DNA from: a virus
Lineage: Duplodnaviria; Caudoviricetes
DNA: 64,000 nt
Virus record (IMG/VR): IMGVR_UViG_3300037067_001811
Location: 28,306 to 92,305 of that record
Reading direction: 5' to 3' (one strand)
Below, in pieces: positions 7,978 to 31,331 of this stretch; position 1 is the first letter of the stretch, and each line of letters starts with the position of its first letter. The notes below the pieces were generated by a model. That model was not told the DNA's origin. It saw nothing but the letters and a program-made list of their open reading frames with translations, and ran no database searches. A program made the translations under genes and the position numbers.

Positions 7978-8002
7978 TGGCAGCCTCTTATGAGGACTTG
8001 CC

Positions 8003-11868: not shown

Positions 11869-13332
11869 ATGATCGACCCCAAGCAAGCCCTACTAGCCCG
11901 CGTCACTTCCCTCGTAGAGAGGACCTCAGCTACAATCCTCTGGAAGTACACGGACGAGGATGGGAAGGACTTCTACCTGTCCGAGAAAAAGGTAGGGACT
12001 ATCAAGTCACCCTACACTGGGAAGTCTTTCTCGGCGAAACCTGAGAGGTCGTCTCTTACTGACGTGAGTAAGGAACTGAAGGAGGATGAGGCCAAGGTGA
12101 AGGGATCCCTCTGGAAGTACACAGACGGGGACAACAAGACCTTCTACCTCCCGGAGCGGGTCACAGGAACCCTCAAGTCACCCTACACAGGGCAATCATT
12201 CACCCCCAAGGCTGACAAGATGAACTTTGGGGAGATTAACAAGGCAGAGAAGACCGCCTCTGCTGCTCCAGTTCTTTGGAAGTACGTTGGTGATGGTGGT
12301 GAGACCTTCTACCTCCCAGAGAAGAAGATGGGGATGGTTCGTAGCCCCTTGTTCGGGGATATCATCCCTGCAAAGCCAACCCGAGCACCCTTGTCAAGTA
12401 TTGCCAAGGATCTCAGGATGAGTGGGAACCCTTCTACAGTGATTTGGGAGTATACTGATAAGGACGGGAAGAAGTTCTACTTGGATGCTCGCAGAAGGGG
12501 GACTCTCAAGTCACCTTATACGGGTCAGTCTTTCCAGGCAGAGGCTGTTCGGCTTCCACTTGGAGAGGTAGGTCAGCCTGTAAGTGACCCAACAGCTGTT
12601 GACCCAGCAGCTGCTGAGCTTGAGGAGCTTCAAGACCTACTTCAGTCTCGAGGGTATAACCCAGCGGATGCTGCTATCTTCCAATCGGAGGGCATGGGGC
12701 CAACGGAGCTTGAAGAGCGACTCGATGATGAAGGTAGTCTTGAGCGATCACACGGTATTGTAAAGTTAGCAGGTCAGATCCAGGAACCTCCAGTTGAGAA
12801 GGAAGAAAAGGAGGAGGGTCAGGACAAAACAGCTGCTCTGAAGGACTCTGACAAGAAGGTAGTTGATGCCTTCTATGAGAAGAAGCCTGCTGAGGGTAAA
12901 GTGCTTACCACTGACGGTAAGACTCTAGAGAAGAATGGCATGGGGGGTCATAACTTTGCCAAGTGGGAAGGTGACAAGATCGTGATCGATCCCACTCGAC
13001 CCCAAGTAAAGAATGACGAAGAGATCCTTCGCTATATGAAGAAGTCCATCCCCTCAGGTAGTCTAGCTCCTCACTCCTTCTTTGGTAAGTCAGCTAAGGT
13101 TGCTGAGGAGTTCATCACTAGGGGTCCGAACCATCCGGCTATTCTTGCACTGAAGAAGGCCTTTGATGAGGTAGTTGCATCTCTTAGTGAGGCACGAGTG
13201 GGTACGGATGGGCTCAAGAACGCCTCTACTCAAGGCCCTGAGATCCTTATGGCTAAGGTGCAGCCTCAGGTGCAGAAGCTTGCTGAGGTATCGGCTCTTG
13301 TCGCTAAGCAGATGGAAGAGCGATTGACATGA
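11869..13332 (+). CDS. multi-module protein with four WxYTDxDGKxFYL...KSPYTG repeats (possible internal head protein)
   Basis: Four repeats visible in translation; further small domains separated by K-x-A motifs. Confidence 0.75.
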   Translation: MIDPKQALLARVTSLVERTSATILWKYTDEDGKDFYLSEKKVGTIKSPYTGKSFSAKPERSSLTDVSKELKEDEAKVKGSLWKYTDGDNKTFYLPERVTGTLKSPYTGQSFTPKADKMNFGEINKAEKTASAAPVLWKYVGDGGETFYLPEKKMGMVRSPLFGDIIPAKPTRAPLSSIAKDLRMSGNPSTVIWEYTDKDGKKFYLDARRRGTLKSPYTGQSFQAEAVRLPLGEVGQPVSDPTAVDPAAAELEELQDLLQSRGYNPADAAIFQSEGMGPTELEERLDDEGSLERSHGIVKLAGQIQEPPVEKEEKEEGQDKTAALKDSDKKVVDAFYEKKPAEGKVLTTDGKTLEKNGMGGHNFAKWEGDKIVIDPTRPQVKNDEEILRYMKKSIPSGSLAPHSFFGKSAKVAEEFITRGPNHPAILALKKAFDEVVASLSEARVGTDGLKNASTQGPEILMAKVQPQVQKLAEVSALVAKQMEERLT

Positions 13333-14021
13333 GCTCACCTTTTGACTTGGACCCGGAACACCCCGGGGTTAGTTCCTCCGCTACTCCTCCAGATGACGCA
13401 ACTTTTGTCATCTGGCAGGATCCTTCATCATACAACCCACTTTTTCACGGGCCTCCTTACTTGCCCGGAATGAAGGTTCGCATGGACAAGGCAGCTTCAC
13501 TCAAGACCGCAGGAACAATAGCTTCGAAGTTAGCACATGGGTCTGGAACGGGTTTACCCACAGCTCTTGTATTCCTTCGAGCTCTGACGATGATCCATCA
13601 GGGTCATCATTGGTTGACTTTTGGTGAATCCTACTACGCCGATCACCTCCTCTTTGAGCGTCTCTACGATGAGACCTTAGAGGAGGTTGATGCAGTAGCG
13701 GAGAAGGCTATTGGGGTTGGTTGTCCTAAGGACAAGATTCACCCTGGGTTGCAGGCCACCTTTATTACCAAGGTAGTCCAACTCTTCTGCGGTGACGGTC
13801 AGAACGAGAGTATGGCAGGCGACCCCAAGAGTTACCTCGAAGCAAGCTTGAAAGCTGAGGAGCTCCTACTCTCTAGTCTAGCCGCTATCGCCGCTGAGAT
13901 GAAGGAGAATGGGGAGTTGACACGAGGAGTGGACAATCTCCTTGCAGGGATTGAAGACAAGCATGAGGGGCATGTGTACCTCCTCAAGCAGAGACTAACG
14001 CCAGACCCTTGGAAGGTCTGA
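13329..14021 (+). CDS. dps: Dps/ferritin-like protein with N-terminal extension
   Basis: HQGHHW...DHLLFERLY...EVDAVAEK ferroxidase signature; C-terminal KHEGHVYLL. Confidence 0.85.
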   Translation: MSSPFDLDPEHPGVSSSATPPDDATFVIWQDPSSYNPLFHGPPYLPGMKVRMDKAASLKTAGTIASKLAHGSGTGLPTALVFLRALTMIHQGHHWLTFGESYYADHLLFERLYDETLEEVDAVAEKAIGVGCPKDKIHPGLQATFITKVVQLFCGDGQNESMAGDPKSYLEASLKAEELLLSSLAAIAAEMKENGELTRGVDNLLAGIEDKHEGHVYLLKQRLTPDPWKV

Positions 14022-14059
14022 GTCACAGATCAGAACAAACCAGATGAAAAGGTAGACAT

Positions 14060-15094
14060 ATGTCAAACGAATCAGAAAACTTGGGTGTAGGCCTCGATGT
14101 TGGTACCATGAACTTTGTCTGTGCAAGACAAAACGGGAATGATACTAAGTTCCATTCAGTACGAGATGCCTTCTTAGACTTGGAGCTTGAGTCAAAGAAG
14201 ACCCTGAAGATGAGTCAAGTTGACTATCAAGAGATTGGTGGGCAACTCTACGTCTTTGGGGATAAAGCACTACAGATGGCCAACCTCTTCAAGAGAGATA
14301 TTCGCCGTCCCTTATCTCGTGGGTTAGTGTCCCCTGGGGAACTGAAGTCTCATGAGATACTAGAGAGCCTCATCAGCAAGGTTCTGGATCTTACAGACCG
14401 ACCAGTACCCAATGGCACTGAGCACTGCTTCTATAGTGTCCCAGCAGAGCCTATCGATCTACCAGGTCATGACGTGGTCTTCCACACTGAAACCTTCCGT
14501 AAGATCCTTGAGACTCAAGGGTACATTGCTCATCCGATGAATGAAGCGATGGCTATCATCTATTCGGAGTGTGCTTCCTCTGGGTTCTCGGGGTTGGCCC
14601 TGTCCTTTGGTGCTGGTTTGTGTAACATCGCTCTATCCTTCCAGGCTATGATGGGAATGAGCTTCTCTCTTGCTCAAGGCGGGGGGGACTGGGTTGATAC
14701 TCACTCAGCTAAGGCTGTTGGGTCGACTGCCTCTCGTATGTGCGCCATCAAGGAGAGGGGTGACTTCAGTCTGAATGATCCACCTGAAGGCAACCAAGAG
14801 GCTGAGGCTATTGCCCTCTATGTGAGGTCTCTGATTCGGAACTGCTTGACCGAAATCGCCAAGAAGGTTCGTAAGGATCAGAGTGGGGCTGACGTTCTAG
14901 ATCCCATTCCAATGGTTGTCTCTGGGGGCACAACTCTAGCCAAGGGCTTCATGGAGGTCTTTCAGGATGAGTTCAACAAGGTGAGGGAGAAGGGGTTCCC
15001 GATTAAGATCTCAGAGATCCGACGGGTAGCAAACCCCTTGGAGGCTGTAGCCAAGGGTCTCTTGGTTCTTGCTCAGCAAGAACACACGGACTAA
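14060..15094 (+). CDS. actin-fold ATPase (MreB/ParM/MamK-like)
   Basis: Phosphate-1 GLDVGTMN, connect-1 NEAMA, phosphate-2 SFGAGLCN, adenosine VVSGGTT, connect-2 NPLEAVAKG; 344 aa. Confidence 0.85.
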   Translation: MSNESENLGVGLDVGTMNFVCARQNGNDTKFHSVRDAFLDLELESKKTLKMSQVDYQEIGGQLYVFGDKALQMANLFKRDIRRPLSRGLVSPGELKSHEILESLISKVLDLTDRPVPNGTEHCFYSVPAEPIDLPGHDVVFHTETFRKILETQGYIAHPMNEAMAIIYSECASSGFSGLALSFGAGLCNIALSFQAMMGMSFSLAQGGGDWVDTHSAKAVGSTASRMCAIKERGDFSLNDPPEGNQEAEAIALYVRSLIRNCLTEIAKKVRKDQSGADVLDPIPMVVSGGTTLAKGFMEVFQDEFNKVREKGFPIKISEIRRVANPLEAVAKGLLVLAQQEHTD

Positions 15095-15098
15095 TAGT

Positions 15099-15734
15099 AT
15101 GAAGCCTTGTAAAAAGTGTGATACTACTGCAAGGGACGCTAGTGGTCACTGTCGTGAGTGTGAGAGGCTTCGATCTATTAATAGGCGTGCTAGTCAAAGT
15201 AAGGAACAGAGGGATAGGGGTAGGCAATGCTGTCTAGTCCGAAGAAAGCGTCAATCTGGGGGTACCCTACTTCATCCTTGTACTAAGTGTGGTAACTCTA
15301 AGCGGAATGCCTCAGGTGGGTGTGATTACTGTGCTAAGGAATACCAGAAAAAGTGGTACCAGAGGAACAAGGCAGTCTCAGTTGAGTGTAAGAAGAAGTG
15401 GCTTGCTGATAACCCTGAGAAGTCACAAGAGTTTGATTTGAGGGTTCGAGTGAGAAGGTACGGTCTTACTGTTGAAGATTTCCATAGGTTGTTCACTAAT
15501 CAGGGCGGTTTATGCGCTATCTGTGGTAGAGGCCTTGGTCGTACAGACATCGATCATGACCATAACCTTGGGTTTGTTAGAGGGCTCTTATGTCACTCAT
15601 GTAATATTGGATTAGGGGCTTTTCAGGATAACCCTGCAATCCTATCTAAGGCTATTCAGTACTTATTAGCTCCAAGGTCTGATTCACAGATAGAGTTACC
15701 TGTCGATAAGGGCGTCGTATGTACTACTACTTGA
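15099..15734 (+). CDS. endonuclease VII-family (His-Me finger) homing endonuclease
   Basis: RYGLT....QGGLCAIC....IDHDH..G.VRGLLC..CN.GLG; two N-terminal Cys4 repeats; ATG 15099 preferred; overlaps downstream gene. Confidence 0.9.
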   Translation: MKPCKKCDTTARDASGHCRECERLRSINRRASQSKEQRDRGRQCCLVRRKRQSGGTLLHPCTKCGNSKRNASGGCDYCAKEYQKKWYQRNKAVSVECKKKWLADNPEKSQEFDLRVRVRRYGLTVEDFHRLFTNQGGLCAICGRGLGRTDIDHDHNLGFVRGLLCHSCNIGLGAFQDNPAILSKAIQYLLAPRSDSQIELPVDKGVVCTTT

Positions 15735-16885: not shown

Positions 16886-16896
16886 AATGAGACCAA

Positions 16897-17331: not shown

Positions 17332-17334
17332 TCT

Positions 17335-17454: not shown

Positions 17455-17469
17455 GACAGCAACAATAGG

Positions 17470-17572: not shown

Positions 17573-17593
17573 CACGAAGTCAGGAGATTTATC

Positions 17594-20500
17594 ATGAGTA
17601 TGGGCCCTTTTGCAACTTATGTCCAACCAGGTGTCTACTCTCGAACGTTGACCGAAGCGAATGTGGCCGCTCTTGTAGCAGGTCTGCGCATTCCGTTCAT
17701 CATCGGAGTTGGTCAAGAAGAACTCGAGCAAGATGACCTCGAGATGGTTCGCGGTTCCTCATCCACCTTGGATGAGCAGATCATCAACGAGGACATTAGT
17801 TCTCGCTGGGTTGTTGATTCAACTAACCCTACTAGTCTAGTCCTAGGGGTCCAAGATGGAACCCGAGTTCAGTTCCAGGTTAGGAATTACCCTGTTGTTG
17901 ATGGGCAGGGGTTTGGTCGCATCTCGAATGATGTTCGGACCATCACAGTTACGGTCAATGGGGCTCCCGTTGCTCTTGGGGCTCTCGTTGGCAGCACTGG
18001 CGTAGTAACTCTCCAGGTTCCGACTCAGCCTTCAGACACGGTCCGAGTCACCTACTTCTTCCATCGTGGTGATACCGCGTTCCAGGATGACGTCTCAAAG
18101 CAGGTTAGTACCTCTCCTGCTCAGATCGTTACCCCAGGGTATGCTCCCTTCACTATTAATGCTGGTTCCAATGACACCTTGAGGGTTACTCTCGACGGTG
18201 GAGTTGAGAAGACTATGGTCTTCTTGCCGGCGGCAGCTGCTACGGCCGCTAACCTCAAGACTCAGATCGATGCAGCCCTCGGGGTTGGTATTGCAGGGGT
18301 TTTCACTGACAACCTTGGTCAGGACCACCTGACGTTCACCTCTCCTTCGTCAGTCCTGATTGGTACCGGAAGTGTCAATGGCATTCTCGGTCTCGCCAAT
18401 GGGCAATCGGCAAGTGGGAATACTCAGTTCAGGGTCTTTCAGATCCCGGTTGTAGATGGTTCTTCGGGTGGAGTAACGACAACTGACACTTCGAAGGTAG
18501 TCGTCAAGGTCAATGGGACTCAGGTCATCCCAACGGCCCTCGATGGTACCAACGGCATTGTGACCTTGGCGATTGCACCGCCTCCAAGTTCGACGGTGAC
18601 GGTTCAGTACTACGCCAATACGTGCCAGGATACCTTCGACTACCTCCCCAACCCGTTGGTGACTAACGTCATTCGTTCGGGTATCAGCCCCGGTAGGTCG
18701 GATTACATCCAGGGCCAAGACTTCGTGATCATGAATCCGAGTCCGGATGTATCCATCGTTCACTGGGGGACCAGCTACTCGGTATCCTCAACTCTCAATA
18801 CCCCTGGAGCAGAGCCCTTCGATAGCTCACAGGTCATCCCAACCTTGGTGGATGATCGGTTGTACTTAGTTCCTTGCACGAACTTCATCGATACCTCGGT
18901 GGTTCCAGCTTCGGTTAGCAGTACGGTGTTCCTGCTTCCAGCAGTACCTACGACCGGTAACGGCCGCAATACTGTCCTTGGGCAGACGGACTTCAACGCT
19001 GTTGCCAATGGTCGCCAGGACCTCGTTACTAACCGACCTGACTTGGTGATTGCTCGGGTAGGTAGGACTCTTGGGGACGCCCTCATTCGTCCTGAGGCTA
19101 AGGTTCTCGCAGTTGACGGTCCTAATCGGAAGATCACCCTTAGGGATCCGATTCCGGCTGACTGGAACGTCTATGCGACCTTCTACTACAGCCGAATCAC
19201 CGATGATACTTACATCCTGACCAATCAGGTTGCAGGGCCCATCGGTACGGGGCAGTACACGGTCTTCTCCTCACTCACGAACACGAACCTCTACCAGGTT
19301 CGCTTCATGGGCAAGGGTGGTCTATCTCAGATCGTTCAGTGGCCGCGTGGAGTCGAGCAGGTTCCAGACGCTATGTACACGGGTGCGGGAACTCCGGTTT
19401 CCGAGACCGTTACAGTTACCTTCGGAACAGCTGCAGCTCGTGGAGCCGTCTATACGAACGAAGGGGCCGCTCCTTACTCGTTCTACAATACAGCCTCGGC
19501 TACTTGGAGAACTCTAGTCAATAGTGTGACGGTTTCTACGAACCTGAGCACTGCTGCAGGGGCTTACTTGGTAGGTCAGTCAGTGGCTATCCCTGGTGGG
19601 AACATCACTGTCCCTGCTTCGCCAAATAACGTTCTGAATCTGGTCATTGATGGGCAGGCTGTTACTGCAACCCTGACTGCTGGTGCTCAGACTCCAGCGG
19701 CCATTGCTGCTACAGTCAATGCGGCCATCGATGCTGTCCTAACAGGTACGAATAACCTGTTCACTCCGATCCCAGGGCCAACTGGCTACACCAACTTCGT
19801 GATCCGAAGCCTCACCGCTCCGGCAGCACTTCCTGGTGGGTTCGATGCAGTGAGCTCGGTACTTGTAGGTCAGGGTACAGTTGAAAACCTCTTGGGCTTC
19901 ACTACCTTCCAGAGTGCAGTGGGTACCGCAGGTGCCATCAACAAGCCGGCAACCCTGTTGGGGTCCATTCCTGAGACCTTTGTGATCACCGCTGGTGTGA
20001 ACGATAGCCTCAAGTTGAGGATTAACGGGATCGACTTTGCGGTCACCTTGAATACCTCCTCAACAACAGCGGCCAACATCGTCACTGACATCAACGGGGT
20101 AATCTCCTCACAGGGTACGGCAACGGCTGGGACCTTGGCGAATGTTGGTAAGGTCAGGATCACCAGCAACGTCAACACCTCGGCTTCCTCAATCCTCATC
20201 TTGGATGGTAGTGCAAATGACACCCTTGGCTTCAGTCAAGGTGACTTTGCGAGCCAAACCCTCGTTGGAGCTCAAGAGGTTACTGATGCTCTGATGGGTA
20301 CAGTTGGGTTTGCAGTGTCATCTTGGACACCCCCAACACCTATTGCCGGTGCGGTTGCCTACCCAACAACGGTCAATGGTCAGACTTATGTCACCATTGC
20401 ATCGCTGACCACTGGTATTGCTACTAGCAGTGTAGGGTTCGTCACAGGAAGCAACTCGGCCTTCAATGTTACCACTGGAACTGGGATCCTTCCTGGAACC

Positions 20501-21868: not shown

Positions 21869-21880
21869 GTCCCAATTATC

Positions 21881-21906: not shown

Positions 21907-21923
21907 AGATTCGAACTTAGTAA

Positions 21924-21971
21924 TTGACAGGGCCCACTTTGGTAGTATCCATACCGAAGTGGGCCCTTGTC
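21924..21971 (+). promoter_or_regulatory. long hairpin overlapping TTGACA, ending immediately before endonuclease ATG
   Basis: GACAGGGCCCACTTTGGTA-gtatcca-TACCGAAGTGGGCCCTTGTC then ATG 21972. Confidence 0.7.
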
Positions 21972-23882: not shown

Positions 23883-23935
23883 CCGCTAAATCTCTTGTAG
23901 GCTCACTAGGGGTGTACGTAGTACTAGGAAGTCCC

Positions 23936-26900
23936 ATGTTGACTAAGAACACTCCTCGAGTAGCGGTAGACGAAGCTGATGACGTAGAGGTTGGGGAGTT
24001 TCAGGTAGCGGAGTATATCATCTTCCTACTTGCTCTGGATACCTACGAGCGGTACGCAGAAGAGTCTTCTGGTGTTGATGATACCGAAGATGTTCTGATT
24101 AAGAAGGGCCTTCGGATCCTTCGAATGGCAGATTCTCAGATTGATGCCTACCGGGAGTTCCTGGAGAGTCATCTGACTAAGCCTGGTCAGATAGCGATGC
24201 TCCGCAAGGCGATGAACTTGAAGGTGTTCAATCCGGCGGGTGCAGCCCGGAGGGCCTTGCACTTCAGGACTATCCTTACTCGAGGTGGGACTGCAACGGT
24301 CAAGGGGATCTTAGCCAACCCGAAGTATGTCAGGCAAGTGAAGCAGGCCATAGCCGCTTCCATGTTGGATGATGCGGACAAGGCTCTTGATGTGTTTGCA
24401 GCTATCCCGCTGCTCAACATCCGAATGCGTGACTGGATTGATGATGCTGCAAAGCAAGCTGGGTCGGGTGAATCTGCCCCCTTACCTGTGGACAATGCTT
24501 CTAATGAAATAGGAGCTTCTGATGAGATCACTAAGGCGGGCATCCAAGAGGTTGCAGCTGTTGGATCAGAGGCGATTCAAGACGAGCAGAACTCCCGGTC
24601 TTTGATGCTTGCTAAGGTTGAAGAAAATGCAACCAAGGCAGCTGTGAAGTCTTTGGAGATCAACAAGAAGACGGACGCCCCTCCGAAGAAGTCTGAGGTT
24701 GTAGGTATTGCTACGGCCGCCGCAGTGGCCGCCATTAGTGACCCCACCCTCTTACAGAACATCCCAGTACCTCTCCAGGGACTAGATGCAGAGCAACGAG
24801 CAGCTGCTCTTACAGGGGGTCGAGTTCGAGTGGCTGCTGGTGCTGGTAGCGGTAAATCCACTACCTTGATAGCTCGCATTGAGTACCTCATCAAAGACTT
24901 GAAGGTCAATCCAGCTCGGATTATGGCTTGCTCTTTCAATAAGAAGGCAGCCGACGAGTTGAAGGAGAAGATTGCAGGGAAGGTTGGGAGTGACGGATCT
25001 TCAGGGGTTCAAGTGGGCACTATGCACGCCCTCTTTGCCAAGTTAATTGTTGGCACAAGGGACACCCCTGGATTCGGTAATCAAGAAGAGCAGGCAATGC
25101 TCCGACCTCCTAGGTTGATTGCTCCGCCTAAGAAGGGGTACAGGTCAATCAGTCCTGTAAGCCTTTCTCAGACTATCAGGAATATGTGGGTTGAGTGTGG
25201 GGCAGATGCAATAGCCTCTAGGTATGGGTACAGTAAAGAGTGGGTCGCAGAACCTCCGAAGGCTAAGAAAGCAGGACTTCTTCTTAATGCGTGGAGGGGT
25301 AACGATATCTCTCTAGATGAGGCCAAGAAGTCTGTAACCTCTAAGGCAGAAGCTCAAGCTGCGGTTTGGTACGACATGTACTTAGGGCTCAAGGGGGACA
25401 CTCCAGGGTGGAAACCTCCTTGTTCAAGCTCCAAGCCCTACAGCAACTTCATGTTCAAGAATCGTAAGGGCAATGAGCGCCTAGGTGATCTTGATGACAT
25501 GCTCAAGATCATTCGAGACATCCTGAAGAGGGATCCGAAGGCTAAGCAAGTTATCCAAGGGATGTTTGACCACATTCTTGTTGATGAGGCTCAGGATCTC
25601 AATACGGTTCAGCACCAAGTGTTTGGGATGCTCTCAGAACATATCCCTCAGGACTCCAAGGATAAGTCCATTTGGATGGTTGGTGATGAGAAACAAGCCA
25701 TCTATCAGTTCCGAGGTGCTAAACCCGAACTCTTCCAGGGTTTAGATGAGGGTTGGACTGTTAGGAATATCCGAACCAACTATCGTTGTCAGCCTGAGAT
25801 CGTGGAAGCTGCCAATAATCTCATTGACCATGATAGTGACGGGACCGTTGTAGCTTCCCAATCGGATCCACGAAAGGATAGAGGGAGAGCATCTATCCAA
25901 GTCAACCTTCCCGAGTCCAATGTTGAGGCTGCTATCGATACCATTGGTCGATACAGTAAGGACATTGACGAGGGTGCTGCGACAGAGAACTTTGCGGTCC
26001 TAGCTCGAACTAATGCTGAGTTGAACGACTTCGAGACAGCTTGTATCATCAATGAGATCCCTTATGTTCGTAGGGGTGGTAAAGGGTTCCTTGAGGCTCC
26101 AGAGTCTCGAGCTCTACTGGGGTACATCGACCTAGCGATGGGTAATGACTACGAGAAGATGAAGGGATCTCTCGTAGCTATTCTGACAAAGCCAGATCGT
26201 GGTCTATTCCTAGGGCATGAAGCGGTGGAAGAGGCAGTGAGTGAGGCTCTTGATACCTTAGCTCGTCGTGAGAGAGTTGATGTCAAGAGCGTTCGCCCCG
26301 ATACTCTACTGGAACCTCGTTATCTGCCTATGTTGGCTGATTGCCTTAAGAGGTCACATCGTCTCAAGATCATCGATTCAGCTAAAGGTGATACTCGCAA
26401 GGGTGAGTACATATACCAAAAGAAGGTTGAGGAATTGGGGGCTAATCTTCGAGGGATAGCTCCTAGTCTTCGAGATCTCAGGGCTTACATTGAAGAGGGT
26501 CACCCGACGGAGGATCTTCTCAATCACGTACTGGACTCCATGACTTCTACAGTCGCCAGTTGGGACTTTGGCTCTAAGTCAACGGTGATGACCACGACTA
26601 CACTTCGTGAGCAGATCACCAATGACATCTCTATCTTTGCAGATGATGATGACGATGAGGAAGATGAAGAGACTAAGGAAGCCCCAGTTGAGGGGGAGGA
26701 AGGCTTGGCGCCTGCTCCAGAGAAGCCCAAGGAACCTAAGGGCTTAGGTGCAGTTCAATTCCTCTTTGAGTTATCGAAGCCTAATCAGCATGATCAGGAG
26801 AACGCAACGGATCCATCCACCTCTCAGGGTTATGTTAAGAAGCTCGCTCGCTACTCGAAGCTAGCGGACACACTTAGGATCGATCCCGACAAGTGGGCTA

Positions 26901-28174
26901 AGAAGCAACTTGAGTTCCCTGAGGGTCAACGTAAGGAGAAGCCTCCTGCTATCACTCTATCGACTGTTCACTGCTCTCCCCCTGATGAGTTGATTCTAAC
27001 TACAGATGGGTGGTTTCCAATTGGGAAATTGGACCCCAATAAGCATCGATTAGCTTCTTACCAGAAGAGTTGTAATCAACTCTTCTGGGGGAAGGGTACT
27101 TCTGGGTATGGTTTCAAGATAGGGCACCGTCCGTATAATGGTACTATCCTTACTCTAATTACAGATCAGAGTAAGACAAGGGTAACCCCAGACCATAGGG
27201 TTATTGCACAGTTCTCAGACACTTTCTTTGAGAAGTATGTTGTCTACCTTATGAGGAGGGGCAGTTGGTGGAGAGTTGGTCACTGTGTCTCGGGTCATAA
27301 GCCATACAAGTCAGGTGGGGTGTCAGGTAGATTAGGTACTGAACAAGCTGACTCAGGGTGGATTCTGAAGGTTTGTGAGACAAAAGAAGAAGCAATACAA
27401 GCTGAAGCTGTGATTCAAGGCACCTATGGGATCTTAGGGGTAACTTTTGAGGCAGCTAAGAGTAGAACCCTGACTTCAACTCAACTTCATCAGATACACA
27501 ATTCAGTACGGGATGTTGTGTACCCGAGGGTACTAAGGTTACTTGCGGACTTTGGTTTAGATGAGAACTCCCCACTTTACATAAGGGATAACCAAGGAGA
27601 GCCCCGTAGTACCCTTCAGGGGATGTTTGTAACCAAAGCAAGTAACTTATTGTCTGATTATATGCTTGTTCCGGCCCCTAGCGCTGACTTTATTCAGCGT
27701 AAGGGTTCAGCTGAGCAGAATAGGAAGCCCAACTTACTACCTGTTAAAGTCTCTAGGGAGCCTTACAGGGGTGAAGTATACTCGCTAGATGTACAGCCTC
27801 ATCACTTCTATGTTAGCGGTGGGATTGTAGTACATAATTCCGTCAAGGGTGCTCAGTGGAAGAATGTAACTGTGGTGATGCCTAAGGGGTTGTTCCCGAT
27901 GGAGCGAAAACCAAGGCCGGATGAGCCACCTCCGGATCCAATCATGGTTGCAGCTCAAATGAAGGCCGAGAGGAATCTGGCTTACGTAGCTTTGACGAGA
28001 GCTGCTGTGAATCTGGAGATCACTTGTCCAAAGGGTATCAGTCCATTTGTGTTTGAAGCAGGATTGATGATCGGTGAGAACGTACCAAAGCCTGGTATGG
28101 ACCAGCAAGAAGAGATCAAGGAGGCCTCTACTCTCTTAGGAGAGTGGGAGATGGCCTACCCGGAGGAGTTCTAA
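23936..28174 (+). CDS. uvrD: UvrD/PcrA/Rep-family SF1A DNA helicase with long N-terminal extension and an intein
   Basis: AGAGSGKST, ILVDEAQD, VGDEKQAIYQFRGA, NYRC, AVLARTN, STVH|SVKG, ERNLAYVALTRA; AGGA RBS favours ATG 23936. Confidence 0.93.
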   Translation: MLTKNTPRVAVDEADDVEVGEFQVAEYIIFLLALDTYERYAEESSGVDDTEDVLIKKGLRILRMADSQIDAYREFLESHLTKPGQIAMLRKAMNLKVFNPAGAARRALHFRTILTRGGTATVKGILANPKYVRQVKQAIAASMLDDADKALDVFAAIPLLNIRMRDWIDDAAKQAGSGESAPLPVDNASNEIGASDEITKAGIQEVAAVGSEAIQDEQNSRSLMLAKVEENATKAAVKSLEINKKTDAPPKKSEVVGIATAAAVAAISDPTLLQNIPVPLQGLDAEQRAAALTGGRVRVAAGAGSGKSTTLIARIEYLIKDLKVNPARIMACSFNKKAADELKEKIAGKVGSDGSSGVQVGTMHALFAKLIVGTRDTPGFGNQEEQAMLRPPRLIAPPKKGYRSISPVSLSQTIRNMWVECGADAIASRYGYSKEWVAEPPKAKKAGLLLNAWRGNDISLDEAKKSVTSKAEAQAAVWYDMYLGLKGDTPGWKPPCSSSKPYSNFMFKNRKGNERLGDLDDMLKIIRDILKRDPKAKQVIQGMFDHILVDEAQDLNTVQHQVFGMLSEHIPQDSKDKSIWMVGDEKQAIYQFRGAKPELFQGLDEGWTVRNIRTNYRCQPEIVEAANNLIDHDSDGTVVASQSDPRKDRGRASIQVNLPESNVEAAIDTIGRYSKDIDEGAATENFAVLARTNAELNDFETACIINEIPYVRRGGKGFLEAPESRALLGYIDLAMGNDYEKMKGSLVAILTKPDRGLFLGHEAVEEAVSEALDTLARRERVDVKSVRPDTLLEPRYLPMLADCLKRSHRLKIIDSAKGDTRKGEYIYQKKVEELGANLRGIAPSLRDLRAYIEEGHPTEDLLNHVLDSMTSTVASWDFGSKSTVMTTTTLREQITNDISIFADDDDDEEDEETKEAPVEGEEGLAPAPEKPKEPKGLGAVQFLFELSKPNQHDQENATDPSTSQGYVKKLARYSKLADTLRIDPDKWAKKQLEFPEGQRKEKPPAITLSTVHCSPPDELILTTDGWFPIGKLDPNKHRLASYQKSCNQLFWGKGTSGYGFKIGHRPYNGTILTLITDQSKTRVTPDHRVIAQFSDTFFEKYVVYLMRRGSWWRVGHCVSGHKPYKSGGVSGRLGTEQADSGWILKVCETKEEAIQAEAVIQGTYGILGVTFEAAKSRTLTSTQLHQIHNSVRDVVYPRVLRLLADFGLDENSPLYIRDNQGEPRSTLQGMFVTKASNLLSDYMLVPAPSADFIQRKGSAEQNRKPNLLPVKVSREPYRGEVYSLDVQPHHFYVSGGIVVHNSVKGAQWKNVTVVMPKGLFPMERKPRPDEPPPDPIMVAAQMKAERNLAYVALTRAAVNLEITCPKGISPFVFEAGLMIGENVPKPGMDQQEEIKEASTLLGEWEMAYPEEF
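26972..27838 (+). mobile_element. intein (289 aa) in helicase motif V
   Basis: Begins CSPPDELILT, block B VTPDHRV, ends VYSLDV....YVSGGIVVHN followed by Ser; removal restores STVHSVKG. Confidence 0.93.
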
Positions 28175-28177
28175 GTC

Positions 28178-29086
28178 ATGGCCGCTACCTATACTGAGGT
28201 GACTCTACCTGAAATGGAGACCTTCCTCAAGAGAGGGTTCCGAGCTCTTCGCCCCAAGCAAGGGTTATACAAAGGGGAGATCTGCTTTGATCTCTTAGTG
28301 AGCCCTACTGTTAGCATCAAAGTACTCACCTCTATTAGACGAAGTGGGGCCCCTACTGGGGTTGGAGAGGATGCCATCAGGGTAATGTTCTGGGGGGTTA
28401 AGGTCGATCGGACGTTAGTTGCTGGGAAAGCACCTATTGTGAAGCGGACTCAGAACTGGAGGAACTCCCTTCAGGACAAGATTGAAGACTACCTTGAGCT
28501 CTATGAGGAGAAGTCTGAGTACTGGGATGTTCGAGGTGCTCAAGAGCCCGGTTCTAAGGGCCCCCCTTGCACCGAAAAACAGGTTAACTTCATCCTAGGG
28601 ATGGCTTCTCGAGCTTCAGAAGATCTCTGGGAGAGCACTGAGCTCTCATGGCCCCCGGATAGGGAAGAGGTTGCAAGACTAACCTCTAAGGAAGCCAGTA
28701 AGGTCATTGAGGTCCTACTGGCAGCAGGGTTAGGACGCAGGTACGCTACTGTGGCAATAACTGAGCTCCCAAGCTTCGAAGTAGCGACTGCTAGTACAAT
28801 AGATGAGCTAGCTAGTCAGTTGGAGAATGATCTTCGAGGGAACAAGGATGCTCATGATATAGTGGTCGGGAGGGAAGAGGCCTTATACCGAGCTCACGTT
28901 CAAGCAGTCCTCAAGTACGGTTGTGAGGGTGGTTGTGAGGGTGGTTGTGAGGGTGGTTGTGAGGGTGGTTGTGAGGGTGGTTGTGATAAGACCGAGAGTA
29001 AGTGTGAGGGTACTTGCGGAGGTACTTGTGATTGCAAGAAGGCAGAGGCAGAAACGTATAGCTACGACTTTACTGGGCCGGTGTAG
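28178..29086 (+). CDS. hypothetical mosaic protein with Cys/Gly-rich C-terminus
   Basis: Globular N-domain, TEKQ...LTSKEASxxIExL hairpin, segment homologous to ORF 33420, (GCEG)5 tail. Confidence 0.7.
   Translation: MAATYTEVTLPEMETFLKRGFRALRPKQGLYKGEICFDLLVSPTVSIKVLTSIRRSGAPTGVGEDAIRVMFWGVKVDRTLVAGKAPIVKRTQNWRNSLQDKIEDYLELYEEKSEYWDVRGAQEPGSKGPPCTEKQVNFILGMASRASEDLWESTELSWPPDREEVARLTSKEASKVIEVLLAAGLGRRYATVAITELPSFEVATASTIDELASQLENDLRGNKDAHDIVVGREEALYRAHVQAVLKYGCEGGCEGGCEGGCEGGCEGGCDKTESKCEGTCGGTCDCKKAEAETYSYDFTGPV
28919..28986 (+). repeat. 12-bp tandem repeat GGTTGTGAGGGT x5 plus partial copy
   Basis: Five perfect copies read directly; encodes GCEG repeats. Confidence 0.95.
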
Positions 29087-29095
29087 TCTTCCTCG

Positions 29096-29941
29096 ATGAG
29101 TGAGCTTCAGTTTCAGGTTACCGTTGACCCTGGTCACCCTTCAGTGGTCGATAGTGCCATCTGCTTTGAGACTGGAGCCCGAGTAGACCAATTGGTGCCA
29201 GGGGTCTATGAGCACCATGGGGTGGGCTTTGACGCTAGCTCACCTGGTGCGCTGCCTAAGTTCTTTGAGGATCTGATCTGTGGTACTCCTTTCCCTCTGA
29301 ACTTTGCTACGCATGGGGTTCGAGGTCCCGATACGGTTTTAGCTATCACCTTGTTCATGCATCGAGATCTCGCATTGAACCCGGCGACCCTTGGTCTCGT
29401 GTATGGAGTGGACCTAGTGCATAGGCTAGGACCTTCTATGTTATCACACTTGGACCCCACAATATCTGGGTTCTTGAGGTCTTTCAATAGGTTCTTCCCA
29501 GAGAAGCTGTCTAAGCTTGAGCGTGGGGAGCGTATTGCAACCGCGGTTCAATGGATCAGGGAGTATCTAGTTGACGGGAGAATACCAAGCCTAGGGGGGC
29601 AGCTCCCTGATGTTCGAGTGATAGACATAGGGACCAATGGGTTTGTACTTGCGGAGACGCTCAATCCCTCTGTTGAGGCTTGGGAGGTCCTATACCGGAG
29701 AGGTTTCCTCCGAGGGTTACTCATAGGACCCGAGGTGGATGGATCACGACCTGTTTTGGCGTCACGAAAGAATGTTCGAGCATGGTCGACCCTCCCTCAG
29801 TGTATTCCGTTCTTAAATGATCTTGACTCTATTTCCGGGGGTGATCCGGAATGGCGTCAAGAAGGGGATAATCTGAGATCACCCTCTGTAGGCACTAAGA
29901 TCCTAGTATCCCACCTGTTAGAAGTGTTTTTGAGATTCTAA
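29096..29941 (+). CDS. hypothetical protein, possibly divergent DHH-like phosphoesterase fold
   Basis: YEHH and ATH....DTVLA motifs; weak resemblance only. Confidence 0.6.
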   Translation: MSELQFQVTVDPGHPSVVDSAICFETGARVDQLVPGVYEHHGVGFDASSPGALPKFFEDLICGTPFPLNFATHGVRGPDTVLAITLFMHRDLALNPATLGLVYGVDLVHRLGPSMLSHLDPTISGFLRSFNRFFPEKLSKLERGERIATAVQWIREYLVDGRIPSLGGQLPDVRVIDIGTNGFVLAETLNPSVEAWEVLYRRGFLRGLLIGPEVDGSRPVLASRKNVRAWSTLPQCIPFLNDLDSISGGDPEWRQEGDNLRSPSVGTKILVSHLLEVFLRF

Positions 29942-29947
29942 CTAGTT

Positions 29948-30118
29948 GTGAACTCACTGTTGGTACGCACCCTCCCTGTTGACACCCTAGTAGACTTGGA
30001 AGACCCTGATATCCCTCGGTCACCTCCAATGCCTAACTTCCAACGGGAGAGGGATACCATCCCCTGTCCACCACCTTCTCATGTGGAGGGGTACCTGGAA
30101 GAGGATTCGCTATCGTGA
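29948..30118 (+). CDS. small Pro/acidic-rich hypothetical protein (56 aa), below ORF-track cutoff
   Basis: GTG...TGA fills the gap exactly: MNSLLVRTLPVDTLVDLEDPDIPRSPPMPNFQRERDTIPCPPPSHVEGYLEEDSLS. Confidence 0.45.
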   Translation: MNSLLVRTLPVDTLVDLEDPDIPRSPPMPNFQRERDTIPCPPPSHVEGYLEEDSLS

Positions 30119-30146
30119 ATCTTGTTGTAGGCCTTCTTCTTAGTAG

Positions 30147-31331
30147 ATGGCTAAGCTGGTCACGGTCGCAACCGATGGATTTCGAGACTACGTTTCCCTT
30201 CCAGGGGGGCGTCAGATCAATCTCGGATCAATATCGGTATTGAAGTTGGTCACCTCCTTAGTGAAGGGGGTCAACCCTTGTCGACGAGCTTTGAACGCCT
30301 TCCTAAAAAATAGGCAAGTAGTCATCTCGGTGGACCTAGAGGAATTGGAAGACCTACTGAAGCCGAAGAGGTCTCGATGGGCCTGCCATGATGATCTGTT
30401 TATCCCAAATGGTTTTCGTCAACTTGTTAGAGGCACTAGCATGAACCCAGAGACATCCCAAGCTGAAGCGATCAACCAGAAGATTGCAGCAATCGAAGAG
30501 GGGTTAGACCTTCTTGATAAAGCTGCAACTGAACATGCTAGTGAGGGTGAGGTTGCTGGCTTAGTTGCCTCCTTATCTAGTTTGGTCTCCGATTTAGGCA
30601 GTGATTCTATTGAGAAGACTGCTGCTGTTGATAAGGACTTGATGCAGGAGTTGCTCCTTTTCATGGAGAATGAAGACTCCATCTTCAACCAGAAGGAAAG
30701 CATCATCAAGAACATCATGCGCAAGAAGAAGCGTGGTGTTTATGATCCTTCCCTTGCCCCCAAGCTTTGGCTGTACTGGGTTGATAACGGAGCGGTAGCT
30801 TACGTTAAGAAGGGGGGCATCAATACCCCGGGGAAGAAGTACTTCCCTATTGAACTCCGTAGGGCATTGGCAGAGCAGATTGCCAAGAGTGAAGAGAAGA
30901 TGATTGAGGATGGTGATTACAGCTCAATCAAGGTAGCTGGGGATGAGCAGGATCAGGGTCAAGTTGATCAGGTCCAGGGAAAAGAAGCTGGTGAGGACAA
31001 GGATGAAGGCGAGGACAAGAAGAAGTCCCTACCCCCTTGGTTAGAGAAGAAGGAAGCTTCTACCCCTGTTTACTACAAGCTCGCTGCTGCGGATGTACCT
31101 GTTATCAACGAAGCCCTTGCCCATTCGGTCATGGCTAAGATCGATCTAGCTCTTGGAGTGGTAGATACCAGCACCAAGAAGAACGCTCATCTGGCTAAGA
31201 GTGACCTGAATAAGATTAGCAGCCAGCTTTCAACGCTTATTACAGGTGCGGATCTTGGAGACCCGACTCTCTGTACTCCTCTCAAGGAGTTGGCCGTGAT
31301 GGCCGATAAGATTCACACACATTTCAGCTGA
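30147..31331 (+). CDS. multi-module hypothetical protein (possible internal head protein)
   Basis: Contains ELLLFMEN...IIKNI.RKKKRGVYD...APKLW.Y.VD.GA..Y cassette bounded by KTAA and KVAG; possible internal start at 30441. Confidence 0.7.
   Translation: MAKLVTVATDGFRDYVSLPGGRQINLGSISVLKLVTSLVKGVNPCRRALNAFLKNRQVVISVDLEELEDLLKPKRSRWACHDDLFIPNGFRQLVRGTSMNPETSQAEAINQKIAAIEEGLDLLDKAATEHASEGEVAGLVASLSSLVSDLGSDSIEKTAAVDKDLMQELLLFMENEDSIFNQKESIIKNIMRKKKRGVYDPSLAPKLWLYWVDNGAVAYVKKGGINTPGKKYFPIELRRALAEQIAKSEEKMIEDGDYSSIKVAGDEQDQGQVDQVQGKEAGEDKDEGEDKKKSLPPWLEKKEASTPVYYKLAAADVPVINEALAHSVMAKIDLALGVVDTSTKKNAHLAKSDLNKISSQLSTLITGADLGDPTLCTPLKELAVMADKIHTHFS

What the first reader, a model, noticed from the sequence alone, without database searches (positions are those of the whole stretch)
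11869..31331. Recurrent K/R-x-A motif at domain boundaries: candidate protease-processed capsid cargo system (helicase, Dps, small cassettes)
Seen: modules are delimited by ERTSA, EKTAS, VKLAG, DKTAA, AKVAE (ORF 11869); DKAAS, LKTAG, SKLAH before the Dps core; PRVA near the N-terminus and IKEAS near the C-terminus of the helicase; RRYAT (28178); EKTAA, IKVAG, GKEAG, KKEAS, YKLAA (30147); VARV leader (3283). Established: T4 and phiKZ prohead proteases cut short motifs (x-x-E) in propeptides of internal head proteins that are later ejected. Inference: this phage uses a K/R-x-A site and packages polyprotein-like cassettes plus a DNA helicase and Dps, explaining why these non-structural genes lie in the late morphogenesis region. 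Caveat: K-x-A is short and frequent by chance.
Basis: inference. Interest (0 to 1): 0.8.

Follow-up and report, generated by a model that had tools for sequence, protein, structure and literature searches.

The report
Lys-x-Ala head-protease cut-site code
In this roughly 500-kb soil phage and its relatives, a short Lys/Arg-x-Ala-(Ser/Gly/Ala) signal marks the capsid scaffold, the capsid protein's leader and the linkers of a few odd proteins (a Dps-like ferritin, modular unknowns, perhaps a helicase). It is most likely the cutting signal of the phage's own head protease, but no cut or packaging has been measured.

Summary
Every listed motif is present. K-x-A-[S/G/A] is not enriched across the proteome but is strongly enriched in a few proteins.

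- **Enriched proteins:** the scaffold (6 vs 0.6 expected), ORF30147 (6 vs 0.7), ORF11869 and the Dps leader. Tail proteins have none.
- **Test outside the window:** The head module just upstream carries the motif in the scaffold (3.5-fold across 35 relatives) and twice in the invariant capsid-protein leader.
- **Conservation:** sites are kept in otherwise variable linkers, with a free middle residue. ORF30147 family: 147 vs 38. ORF11869 family: 84 vs 29. Dps leader: 13 of 13.
- **Independent replication:** in a complete 512-kb relative, the five most enriched of 683 ORFs are the scaffold, two head-region proteins and the orthologues of ORF30147 and ORF11869. Cultured phage Tunturi_5 repeats the pattern.

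The best reading is the recognition site of the head-maturation protease, marking prohead-internal substrates. It is a known kind of system (T4, phiKZ, P1 Dar) with an undescribed specificity.

Cargo status is plausible for ORF30147, ORF11869 and Dps, weaker for the helicase, and unmeasured for all. The "VARV leader" does not fit.

The scan has noted the same code on other phage DNA. I found no paper describing it.

The parts
11869..13332 (+). ORF11869, 487 aa. It has a ~21-aa N-terminal leader, then 4 tandem ~56-aa 'LWKYxDxDG...SPYTGKSF' repeats, a helical acidic linker region and a conserved C-terminal domain. Candidate prohead-internal substrate.
   Evidence: Repeats: (HMM i-E 1e-25 to 1e-30 for 4 copies). 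The copy number varies among homologues, 1-4 copies in the five aligned. Family of 31 sequences: K.A[SGA] 84 vs 29.4 expected.
11920..11931 (+). Leader-end site R-T-S-A (residues 18-21), immediately before the invariant A21-x-x-L24-W25 of repeat 1.
   Evidence: [KR]-[TIV]-[AS]-A in 30 of 31 homologues (KTAA 12, KIAA 5, RTSA 4 ...).
12250..12261 (+). K-T-A-S site between repeats 2 and 3.
   Evidence: KTAA/KTAS in 10 of the 11 homologues that have this segment.
12763..12837 (+). Two linker sites, K-L-A-G (299-302) and K-T-A-A (320-323), flanking an acidic EKEEKEE stretch.
   Evidence: Column 299: 11 of 24 keep the word. Column 320: 20 of 29 keep K-x-A-[AS], but 7 have V/L in place of K.
13329..14021 (+). 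Dps/ferritin-like protein, 230 aa. A ~75-aa N-terminal extension precedes the four-helix core.
   Evidence: Pfam Ferritin 3.1e-5 (24.4 bits, cut-off 24.5); phrog_3636 and phrog_858. The HHW...DH...D-x-x-x-E ferroxidase-type pattern is visible in the sequence. More distant phage homologues lack the extension.
13329..13553 (+). Dps N-terminal extension with the conserved block IW-x-DP-x-x-Y-x4-HGPPYLP. Candidate capsid-targeting propeptide.
   Evidence: Conserved in 13 sequences, including three complete genomes of 435-529 kb, and always attached to the Dps core.
13488..13538 (+). K-A-A-S (54-57), K-T-A-G (59-62) and K-L-A-H (67-70) between the extension and the Dps core.
   Evidence: The first site is [KR]-x-A-[SA] in 13 of 13 sequences, with variable x and variable spacing (DKAAS, DRTAS, DKSAS, DKQAS, LKAAS, PKTAA). 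The second is not conserved. The third is partly conserved.
23912..28174 (+). UvrD/REP-type helicase. It has a conserved ~150-aa N-terminal domain, a variable linker and an intein. The probable true start is the ATG at 23936.
   Evidence: Pfam UvrD-helicase 4.1e-43, UvrD_C 6.2e-15; phrog_1967 9.7e-74. Homologue starts align at ML(I/V)PI. K.A count is not enriched, 14 vs 9.6.
23957..23968 (+). Helicase leader site R-V-A-V, 8-10 residues after the probable start.
   Evidence: [KR]-[VLI]-A in 12 of 19 relatives and T-V-A in 3. P1' is V/I/A, which is atypical. Weak.
24452..24463 (+). K-Q-A-G followed by SG, at the end of the conserved N-terminal domain and the start of a variable stretch.
   Evidence: AAKQ[AS]GSG in 16 of 19 relatives, with E in place of K in 3.
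26972..27838 (+). Intein in the helicase (residues 1021-1309). Not part of the motif system.
   Evidence: Absent from 11 of the 14 full-length relatives, which read TVH-SVKGAQW across the site. Weak Pfam Intein_splicing hit.
28118..28129 (+). Helicase C-terminal tail site K-E-A-S, 15 residues before the end.
   Evidence: [KR]-x-[AS]-[SAG] in 11 of 14 full-length relatives, inside an otherwise variable tail.
28178..29086 (+). ORF28178, 302 aa. A conserved ~190-aa N-domain is followed by R-Y-A-T (28739-28750) and a variable Cys-rich (CEGG)x6 tail.
   Evidence: [RK]-[YF]-[AS]-[STA] at the domain end in 11 of 12 relatives and the window itself. Three relatives end about 12 aa after it.
30147..31331 (+). 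ORF30147, 394 aa. Four folded modules (1-72, 101-152, 163-254, 317-393) are joined by disordered linkers. It lies directly upstream of the tail-tube gene. Candidate ejection or internal head protein.
   Evidence: AlphaFold pLDDT profile. Family of 36: K.A[SGA] 147 vs 38.4. No Pfam, PHROG or fold match. It occupies the same position as the K-x-A-rich 'DNA ejection protein' gp328 of Tunturi_5, with no sequence similarity to it.
30429..30440 (+). R-G-T-S after the conserved N-terminal module of ORF30147.
   Evidence: [KR]-G-[AS]-[SG] in 25 of 35 homologues (RGAS 12, RGAG 7, KGAS 4). It lies in the pLDDT<50 linker 89-101.
30615..30626 (+). K-T-A-A in the short linker 154-158.
   Evidence: 15 of 34 homologues keep the word. 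pLDDT<50 segment.
30930..31088 (+). Linker 255-316 with K-V-A-G, K-E-A-G, K-E-A-S and K-L-A-A. In relatives the same linker holds 1-3 copies of a cassette that begins K-x-A-G-ELPPALKKYNEEHGKGE.
   Evidence: Alignments: KLAA in 30 of 35; K[DES]A[SA] in 11 of 13; K-x-A-G with x = V/N/T/S/I. Disordered in the model.

Best explanation
The window is part of a 92-kb fragment of a roughly 500-kb phage. Its head genes are of the phage G / cluster-C mycobacteriophage / Tunturi_5 type.

The head-maturation protease is encoded 26-28 kb upstream of the window, next to the scaffold and the major capsid protein. It most likely recognises basic-x-Ala followed by a small residue (K/R-x-A, then S/G/A, sometimes H/T) and cuts there, probably after the Ala.

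Inside the prohead it would do the following:
- Degrade the Gln-rich scaffold.
- Remove the 18-25-residue leader of the capsid protein.
- Trim itself.
- Process a small set of internal proteins.

The predicted internal proteins in the window are:
- ORF30147, cut into four modules.
- ORF11869, which would lose its leader and be cut in its linkers.
- The Dps-like protein, which would lose a conserved 55-70-residue N-terminal propeptide that probably serves as its capsid-targeting element.
- Less certainly, ORF28178 (tail removal) and the UvrD helicase (short N-leader, N-domain boundary and C-tail).

Shown here: the motif is non-randomly concentrated in these proteins, is conserved in variable linkers, and is shared with the canonical protease substrates.

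Inferred: cleavage itself, the scissile bond, capsid location and ejection.
For: 1. Gene context. The order is protease (phrog_18299, 3e-12), then a Q-rich 449-aa scaffold-like protein, then MCP (phrog_2522, 4e-52), on the same contig.

2. Canonical substrates carry the word.
- Scaffold: K.A 12 vs 2.7 and K.A[SGA] 6 vs 0.6.
- In 35 non-identical scaffolds of the clade, K.A is the second most over-represented gap-1 pair (341 vs 98), after Q.Q only.
- The MCP leader YI[KR]TAAGR[AS]KLA[AST]SM is kept in 42 loci and in Tunturi_5 as LLKSAAGRQKLAAS.
- A [KR]-x-A-[AST] site at protease residue ~38 occurs in 25 of 31 homologues and in Tunturi_5 (KTAA) and phage G (KTAA). A K-x-A also follows the protease domain in all three: QKAAR, KKVAS, EKVAS.

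3. Unbiased genome scan of a complete 512-kb relative with 683 ORFs. The top five by Poisson p are the scaffold (7 vs 0.47, 7e-7), a g34-like protein, the ORF30147 orthologue (7 vs 1.2), a g12198-like protein and the ORF11869 orthologue. All lie within 353-409 kb.

4. Replication in cultured Tunturi_5, whose protease is 38% identical. 'DNA ejection protein' gp328 has 12 vs 2.2 (4e-6), the scaffold-like gp332 has 8 vs 1.7, and the MCP and protease have 2 each. Of the other 28 CDS, 25 have none; gp321 has 5 vs 2.2, the sheath 2 vs 0.9 and gp319 1 vs 0.2, none significant.

5. Site conservation with a free middle residue: ORF30147 family, ORF11869 family, Dps leader 13 of 13, ORF28178, helicase termini.

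6. Sites sit in disordered linkers of the ORF30147 model.

7. Precedent. T4, phiKZ and SPN3US proteases cut propeptides of ejected head proteins (PMC5694885, PMC10052503). P1 Pro removes the DarA N-terminus, and the ~2000-aa DarB is packaged (PMC12810830). [quoted passage not shown]
Against: - No cleavage, virion proteome or N-terminus is available for this phage or its close relatives.
- The protease is assigned only by PHROG, gene order and the Tunturi_5 annotation. It has no Pfam family. Its AlphaFold model failed (pLDDT 44.6). hhalign to HK97 gp4 and T4 gp21 gives only local, non-significant matches.
- The helicase is not enriched by count. K is E at its KQAGSG site in 3 relatives, and its N-leader site has V/I after the Ala.
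- Some sites are not conserved: Dps site 2, ORF11869 KSAKVAE, and K replaced by V/L in 7 of 29 at ORF11869 site 320.
- The portal of the 512-kb relative has no site. The phage G MCP has RVALA|Q instead of a basic residue.
- The g34-like and g12198-like proteins are so conserved overall that their sites say nothing on their own.
- The phage G proteome lists 104 proteins, many probably not true virion components.
Confidence: 0.6

Rival explanations
1. The motif is the head-protease site, but only the classical head proteins and the two modular unknowns (ORF30147, ORF11869) are substrates. On this reading the Dps-like protein, the helicase and ORF28178 are ordinary cytoplasmic enzymes. They sit among late genes because huge-phage genomes are mosaic, and their few K-x-A words are conserved for other reasons.
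For: The helicase count is not enriched. K is replaced by E in 3 relatives. The region is riddled with mobile insertions: homing endonucleases, inteins and an actin-like gene among the structural genes. Gene position alone is therefore weak evidence. More distant Dps homologues have no extension.
Against: The Dps extension plus [KR]-x-A-[SA] is kept in 13 of 13 sequences despite changes in spacing and context. This is hard to explain for a cytoplasmic Dps. The helicase-ORF28178-ORF30147 block keeps its place between the sheath and tube genes in all relatives examined.
Confidence: 0.2
2. K/R-x-A-small is a selected motif but not a scissile site. It could be a docking word bound by the scaffold, the capsid inner surface or the protease without cutting, or the target of another modification.
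For: Only conservation and enrichment are shown, and nothing here distinguishes binding from cutting. Some conserved words lie in predicted helices, such as KIAA 112 in ORF30147 and KEAS 171 in ORF28178, judged helical from sequence context only, with no model.
Against: The word occurs many times in the scaffold and at the very N-terminus of the MCP. In every studied system with a head protease, those are the parts that are removed. It sits in disordered linkers and at domain ends, and cassette copy number varies between the words. That is the anatomy of cut sites in phiKZ and SPN3US (PMC5694885).
Confidence: 0.12
3. Compositional or chance effect. On this reading Lys- and Ala-rich helical or low-complexity linkers produce K-x-A by themselves, and the reader picked the examples after the fact.
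For: There is no proteome-wide enrichment (141 vs 123), and K.A is not among the ten most over-represented gap-1 pairs. The word is short. The K/A-rich 1252-aa ORF34728 has 15 K.A against 15.1 expected.
Against: Within-protein shuffles control for composition. The reversed control A.K is flat at 122 vs 123. Blind ranking of 683 ORFs in another genome recovers the same families. The middle residue varies while K, A and the small residue are kept.
Confidence: 0.05

Closest known systems
T4 prohead protease gp21 with scaffold gp22, gp23/gp24 propeptides and internal proteins IPI-III/Alt (capsid-targeting sequence plus cleavage)
   Same: The protease, scaffold and MCP genes are adjacent. A three-residue word is repeated in the scaffold and sits at the end of N-terminal leaders of internal proteins. 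ORF11869 (~21 aa) and the helicase (~10 aa) have short leaders of this kind.
   Different: T4 cuts after Glu in (L/I)-x-E (PMC5694885). Here the word is basic-x-Ala-small. No sequence similarity to gp21 was detectable (hhalign probability 0.2%), and the candidate leaders share no common sequence.
phiKZ gp175 / SPN3US gp245 proteases and their inner-body and ejection proteins
   Same: Both are giant phages in which many head proteins have long propeptides and several cut sites. The protease trims its own C-terminus, and paralogous or modular internal proteins are present (PMC5694885, PMC10052503).
   Different: The motif there is (S/A/G)-x-E. This is a different phage lineage with no nucleus-forming or vRNAP genes seen in the contig. 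The predicted substrates (Dps-like protein, WKY-repeat protein) have no counterpart there.
Phage P1 Dar system (DarA, Hdf, DarB ...) processed by prohead protease Pro
   Same: Enzymes that are not structural are loaded into the head through N-terminal parts and injected. The DarA N-terminus (~70 aa) is removed by the head protease, and the very large DarB is packaged (PMC12810830). From my own knowledge, DarB carries helicase and methyltransferase domains. This is the nearest precedent for a packaged helicase.
   Different: There is no sequence relation, the P1 cut-site rule is different or unknown, and the function here is unknown.
Herpesvirus assemblin (pUL26/UL80) release and maturation sites
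   Same: Ala at P1 and Ser at P1' (consensus V/L-x-A|S, from my own knowledge). The mature assemblin ends in Ala (PMC4498786). The scaffold and the protease itself are the substrates. Phage head proteases share the assemblin fold (Cheng et al. 2004, cited in PMC10052503).
   Different: P3 is hydrophobic in herpesviruses and basic here. The fold of this protease could not be established.
Encapsulin nanocompartments with ferritin-like cargo
   Same: An HK97-fold shell is predicted to enclose a ferritin-superfamily protein that carries a dedicated terminal extension.
   Different: Encapsulin cargo uses a short C-terminal loading peptide and is not cleaved (own knowledge). Here the extension is N-terminal, 55-70 aa long and followed by a putative cut site, and the shell is a DNA-filled virion.

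Membership tests
Head-protease-processed prohead proteins (T4 / phiKZ / P1 kind of system) | A head-maturation protease gene next to the scaffold and major capsid protein genes | tested here: met
   Contig 723-2378 is the protease (phrog_18299 3e-12, phrog_2774 5e-21). 2422-3771 is Q-rich and scaffold-like. 4563-5432 is the MCP (phrog_2522 4e-52, Pfam Phage_capsid 1.7e-6)..
Head-protease-processed prohead proteins (T4 / phiKZ / P1 kind of system) | One short word shared by the scaffold, the MCP leader, the protease termini and the internal proteins | tested here: met
Head-protease-processed prohead proteins (T4 / phiKZ / P1 kind of system) | Demonstrated cleavage at the word and presence of the products in particles | not testable with these tools
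   No proteome exists for this clade. Phage G particle proteomics (PMC12484599) reports no cleavage sites.
T4/phiKZ specificity class (cut after Glu, x-x-E) | Glu at P1 | tested here: not met
   The recurrent word has Ala, not Glu, at the third position.
Assemblin-fold serine proteases (MEROPS S21 / S77 / S78) | Assemblin-like fold with a Ser/His catalytic pair | tested here: inconclusive
   No Pfam hit at E<=1 in 32 homologues. PDB sequence and profile searches were empty. The AlphaFold model had pLDDT 44.6. In the ESM Atlas the nearest named cluster is 'prohead core protein protease' at 0.96, with S77 and S78 clusters at 0.91-0.92. hhalign places invariant S180 (TLSMG) on the HK97 gp4 GMSVG stretch, which by my recollection holds its catalytic Ser, and an N-x-N...L motif on T4 gp21 residues 48-71. 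Both matches have probability 0.2%. H129 and S180 are invariant.
Dps / ferritin-like superfamily | Four-helix ferritin-like core with ferroxidase ligands | tested here: inconclusive
   Pfam Ferritin 3.1e-5 at 24.4 bits, just under the 24.5 cut-off. phrog_3636 1.5e-8 and phrog_858 2.9e-6. The HHW / DH / D-x3-E pattern was read from the sequence. No structure was predicted.
UvrD/REP superfamily 1 helicase | UvrD N- and C-terminal helicase domains | tested here: met
   PF00580 4.1e-43, PF13361 6.2e-15, phrog_1967 9.7e-74.
Encapsulin cargo | C-terminal cargo-loading peptide next to an encapsulin shell gene | tested here: not met
   The extension is N-terminal, and the shell gene is a virion MCP in a full tail and head module.

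The most novel reading that the evidence does not exclude
A widespread clade of 300-530-kb soil and sediment phages uses an undescribed head-protease code, basic-x-Ala|small, which resembles herpesvirus sites. With it the phages load and tailor a cargo that includes a Dps-like iron/DNA-binding protein carrying its own conserved N-terminal capsid-targeting domain, modular proteins with variable cassette number, and a UvrD helicase. All of these would be co-injected with the genome. This would make the virion a phage counterpart of ferritin-loaded encapsulins and would extend the P1 Dar idea to DNA-protection and repair enzymes.
Probability: 0.35. Interest if true: 0.75.

Novelty: new variant of a known kind. 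Interest (0 to 1): 0.62.

Why it matters
Most genes of huge phages have no assigned function, and which proteins travel inside the capsid is unknown for this clade.

- **Prediction from sequence.** If K/R-x-A-small is the protease code, it gives a sequence-only way to predict head-internal and ejected proteins. That would apply across the large clade of metagenomic relatives (580 related MCP loci confirmed in IMG/VR; 1599 protease homologues in the protein collection).
- **Protease specificity.** It would define a new specificity among assemblin-type proteases, closer to the herpesvirus A|S sites than to the phage x-x-E sites.
- **Cargo.** It would point to an unexpected cargo, a Dps-like protein and perhaps a helicase.
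- **Testability.** Two cultured relatives exist, Tunturiibacter phage Tunturi_5 and Bacillus phage G.

Tried and rejected
1. A shared portable targeting domain. hhalign among the N-terminal modules of ORF30147, the helicase, Dps and ORF28178 gives probabilities of 2.2% or less. An HMM of the ORF11869 repeat does not hit the Dps extension or any other protein of the contig. The Dps extension occurs only on Dps in five complete genomes.
2. Homology of ORF30147 or ORF11869 to the Tunturi_5 'DNA ejection protein' gp328: none.
3. Classifying the protease. Pfam, PDB sequence and profile searches, AlphaFold and hhalign to HK97 gp4 and T4 gp21 were all inconclusive. I did not run a fold search on the low-confidence model.
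4. Function of ORF30147 by fold. Foldseek against the PDB gave nothing below E = 0.1.
5. DNA and protein look-ups in the cultured-phage collection. There was no nucleotide match. Dps matches only LR745208.1.
6. Portal processing. The portal of the 512-kb relative has no site, although the phage G portal N-terminus has KQA|A and KMA|S.
7. Literature. I found no paper describing a K-x-A head-protease rule or the mature N-terminus of the phage G MCP.
8. The VARV 'leader' of ORF3283 is not a member of the motif.

Full report
**What the DNA is.** The window is bases 28306-92305 of a 92.3-kb IMG/VR contig that CheckV rates 19% complete, which implies a phage of roughly 480-500 kb. All long ORFs are on the + strand.

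The tail sheath (1424 aa), MCP and protease find the same relatives: an uncultured 485-kb phage (LR745208.1), Tunturiibacter phage Tunturi_5 (309 kb), Bacillus phage G, and cluster-C-type actinobacteriophages. The best 80 are 91-100% identical, many on 300-530-kb contigs with terminal repeats.

**Gene content of the finding.**
- ORF11869 has four ~56-aa repeats and no family match.
- ORF13329 is Dps/ferritin-like and carries a ~75-aa N-terminal extension.
- ORF14060 is an actin-like protein of the Volactin family.
- ORF15069 is an endonuclease VII/HNH protein.
- ORF17594 is the sheath.
- ORF21924 is a Ros/MucR-HNH endonuclease.
- ORF23912 is a UvrD helicase with an intein.
- ORF28178, ORF29096 and ORF30147 are unknowns.
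- ORF31370 is the tube-like protein.

The head module lies upstream of the window on the same contig, at contig coordinates 723-2378 (protease), 2422-3771 (a 449-aa Gln-rich scaffold-like protein) and 4563-5432 (a 289-aa MCP).

**Checking the observation.** I compared counts with 300 within-protein shuffles.

| Protein or set | Pattern | Observed | Expected |
|---|---|---|---|
| Whole proteome | K.A | 141 | 123 |
| Whole proteome (control) | A.K | 122 | 123 |
| Scaffold | K.A | 12 | 2.7 |
| Scaffold | K.A[SGA] | 6 | 0.6 |
| ORF30147 | K.A[SGA] | 6 | 0.7 |
| ORF11869 | K.A[SGA] | 4 | 1.1 |
| ORF11869 | K.A[SGAEH] | 7 | 1.3 |
| g34 (228-aa protein before the protease) | K.A[SGA] | 3 | 0.2 |
| Helicase | K.A | 14 | 9.6 |

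The proteome as a whole is not enriched, and K.A is not among the top pairs in a blind survey of all 400 gap-1 residue pairs. A few proteins are strongly enriched. The Dps protein has three K.A within residues 54-69. Sheath, tube, fibre and baseplate-region ORFs have essentially none. The helicase is not enriched by count.

The MCP begins MVSNEIKQQIISEYIKTA|AGRAKLA|ASMIQP. This leader is kept in 42 related loci, and Tunturi_5 has LLKSA|AGRQKLA|AS at the same place.

In 35 non-identical scaffolds, a blind survey ranks K.A second of all gap-1 pairs (341 vs 98 expected), behind only Q.Q. After K.A, Ser and His are 3-5-fold over-represented.

The protease family keeps [KR]-x-A-[AST] at about residue 38 in 25 of 31 homologues, as RKASQ-type words. 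Tunturi_5 has GKTAAT and phage G has VKTAAK there. All three also have a K-x-A about 45 residues after the PAF-GA end of the catalytic domain: QKAA|R, KKVA|S and EKVA|S.

**Conservation in the window's proteins.**

*ORF30147.* Thirty-six homologues (39-87% identity over the alignment) carry 147 K.A[SGA] against 38.4 expected. The conserved columns are:
- [KR]-G-[AS]-[SG] after the N-terminal module, 25 of 35.
- K-[TL]-A-A, 15 of 34.
- K-x-A-[GS] with x = T/V/S/I.
- K-[DES]-A-[SA], 11 of 13.
- YYK-L-A-A, 30 of 35.

Between these words, relatives carry 1-3 copies of a cassette that begins K-x-A-G-ELPPALKKYNEEHGKGE.

An AlphaFold model built on that alignment (mean pLDDT 77) shows four folded modules and linkers at 75-101, 154-158 and 255-316. 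Five of the six K.A[SGA] words fall in those linkers.

*ORF11869.* Thirty-one homologues carry 84 against 29.4 expected. The leader-end word [KR]-[TIV]-[AS]-A is present in 30 of 31, directly before the invariant first repeat.

*Dps.* All 13 sequences that have the extension share IW-x-DP-x2-Y-x4-HGPPYLP, followed within 2-20 residues by [KR]-x-A-[SA]. This includes three complete genomes where spacing and context differ: LKAAS, PKTAA, and PKTAA plus IRTAA. More distant phage Dps homologues have no extension.

*ORF28178.* [RK]-[YF]-[AS]-[STA] ends the conserved domain in 11 of 12 relatives and in the window itself. What follows is variable or nearly absent.

*Helicase.* Relatives start ML(I/V)PI-x2-[KRT]-[VLI]-A. 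They keep AAKQ[AS]GSG after a conserved N-domain, with E for K in 3 of 19. They keep [KR]-x-[AS]-[SAG] about 15 residues from the C-terminus in 11 of 14.

**Independent replications.**

1. I tiled the complete 512,571-bp relative, whose MCP is identical but whose ORF30147 is 41% identical. I called 683 ORFs and ranked them by Poisson p for K.A[SGA] against composition. The top five are:
   - the scaffold (7 vs 0.47, p = 7e-7);
   - the g34-like protein (4 vs 0.25);
   - the ORF30147 orthologue (7 vs 1.23);
   - a g12198-like protein (4 vs 0.66);
   - the ORF11869 orthologue (5 vs 1.29).

   All lie within 353-409 kb, and the MCP ranks tenth.

2. In cultured Tunturi_5, across 32 annotated CDS around the sheath:
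   - gp328 'DNA ejection protein' has 12 vs 2.2 (p = 4e-6);
   - the scaffold-like gp332 has 8 vs 1.7;
   - the MCP and protease have 2 each;
   - of the other 28 CDS, 25 have none, and gp321 (5 vs 2.2), the sheath (2 vs 0.9) and gp319 (1 vs 0.2) are not significant.

   gp328 lies between the sheath and tube genes, where the helicase-ORF28178-ORF30147 block lies here. It has no sequence similarity to ORF30147 or ORF11869.

**Interpretation.** The word is under selection and marks the parts of head proteins that are removed in every studied system with a head protease. In other proteins it sits in disordered linkers and at domain ends. The simplest reading is that it is the cut site of the adjacent head-maturation protease, and that the proteins carrying it in conserved positions are present in the prohead.

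The scissile bond is an inference. I place it after Ala, by analogy with the position of the cut in T4/phiKZ words (PMC5694885) and with herpesvirus A|S sites (own knowledge; assemblin ends in Ala, PMC4498786).

Precedents for non-structural cargo are T4 internal proteins, the SPN3US and phiKZ ejection proteins, and the P1 Dar proteins. In P1, the DarA N-terminus is removed by Pro and the ~2000-aa DarB is packaged (PMC12810830).

[quoted passage not shown] That list is broad, and tblastn of the window's Dps against the cultured-phage collection did not match phage G at E <= 0.001.

**Limits.**
- The protease could not be placed in a family by Pfam, PDB, AlphaFold or hhalign. Only PHROG, gene order, the ESM Atlas neighbours and two non-significant local matches on plausible catalytic motifs speak for an assemblin-type enzyme.
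- No shared targeting sequence exists among the candidates.
- Several individual sites are not conserved.
- The helicase case is weak.
- The portal of the 512-kb relative and the phage G MCP lack the word.

**Novelty.** The system is of a known kind, and the specificity and the predicted cargo are new to the literature I could search. Within this scan, the same Lys-x-Ala code has already been noted on other phage DNA: e1-5374500, e1-5815356, e1-5816174 and e1-5664895. Those are unverified AI notes and I did not count them as evidence.

Noticed in passing
window 14060-15094 (+): Actin-like protein of the Volactin family (Pfam PF25216, 7.6e-64, full length). It lies between the Dps-like gene and an endonuclease VII gene, inside the structural region of a huge phage. 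An orthologue (339 aa) sits at the same place in the 512-kb relative.
   Followed up: no
window 26972-27838 (+), inside the helicase gene: A 289-residue intein (TVH|C...VVHN|S) interrupts the helicase C-terminal domain. Eleven of 14 full-length relatives lack it and read TVH-SVKGAQW. Three others (1415-1477 aa) are long enough to carry an insertion. The 873-aa ORF at 8003-10624 also carries a Hint/LAGLIDADG intein (Pfam Hint_2 3.5e-9). Some protease homologues (~960 aa) carry Hint domains too.
   Followed up: partly
window 5768-7285, 15069-15734, 21924-23882; contig 5519-8886, 11425-12165, 18798-19718: The head-neck-tail region has an unusually dense set of homing-type endonuclease genes among the structural genes: LAGLIDADG, GIY-YIG, HNH, endonuclease VII, DUF7487, and Ros/MucR with an HNH-like C-terminus.
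   Followed up: no
window 28178-29086 (+), residues ~250-290: The C-terminal tail of ORF28178 is a (CEGG)x6 repeat followed by CxxxC-type clusters. Relatives have shorter, different Cys-rich tails or none. It may bind metal.
   Followed up: partly
window 11935-12590 (+), ORF11869 residues 23-240: Four tandem ~56-aa repeats (LWKYxDxDGxxFYLxEKKxGTxKSPYTGKSF) with no Pfam or PHROG family. The copy number differs between relatives. Parts of the protein recur in many otherwise different metagenomic proteins of 270-850 aa.
   Followed up: partly
contig 723-2378 (window -27582 to -25927): The head protease is 551 aa. Its ~260-aa catalytic part contains a four-Cys zinc-ribbon insertion, with C190, C193, C204 and C229 invariant. 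A conserved ~250-aa C-terminal domain follows. The Tunturi_5 and phage G enzymes stop after the catalytic part. The gene call on record starts 71 residues too late.
   Followed up: partly
window 17594-21868 (+): The tail sheath is 1424 aa. Only its last ~350 residues resemble ordinary sheath proteins (phage G, cluster-C phages). The first ~1000 residues are Thr/Ser/Gly/Ala-rich repeats of unknown role.
   Followed up: no
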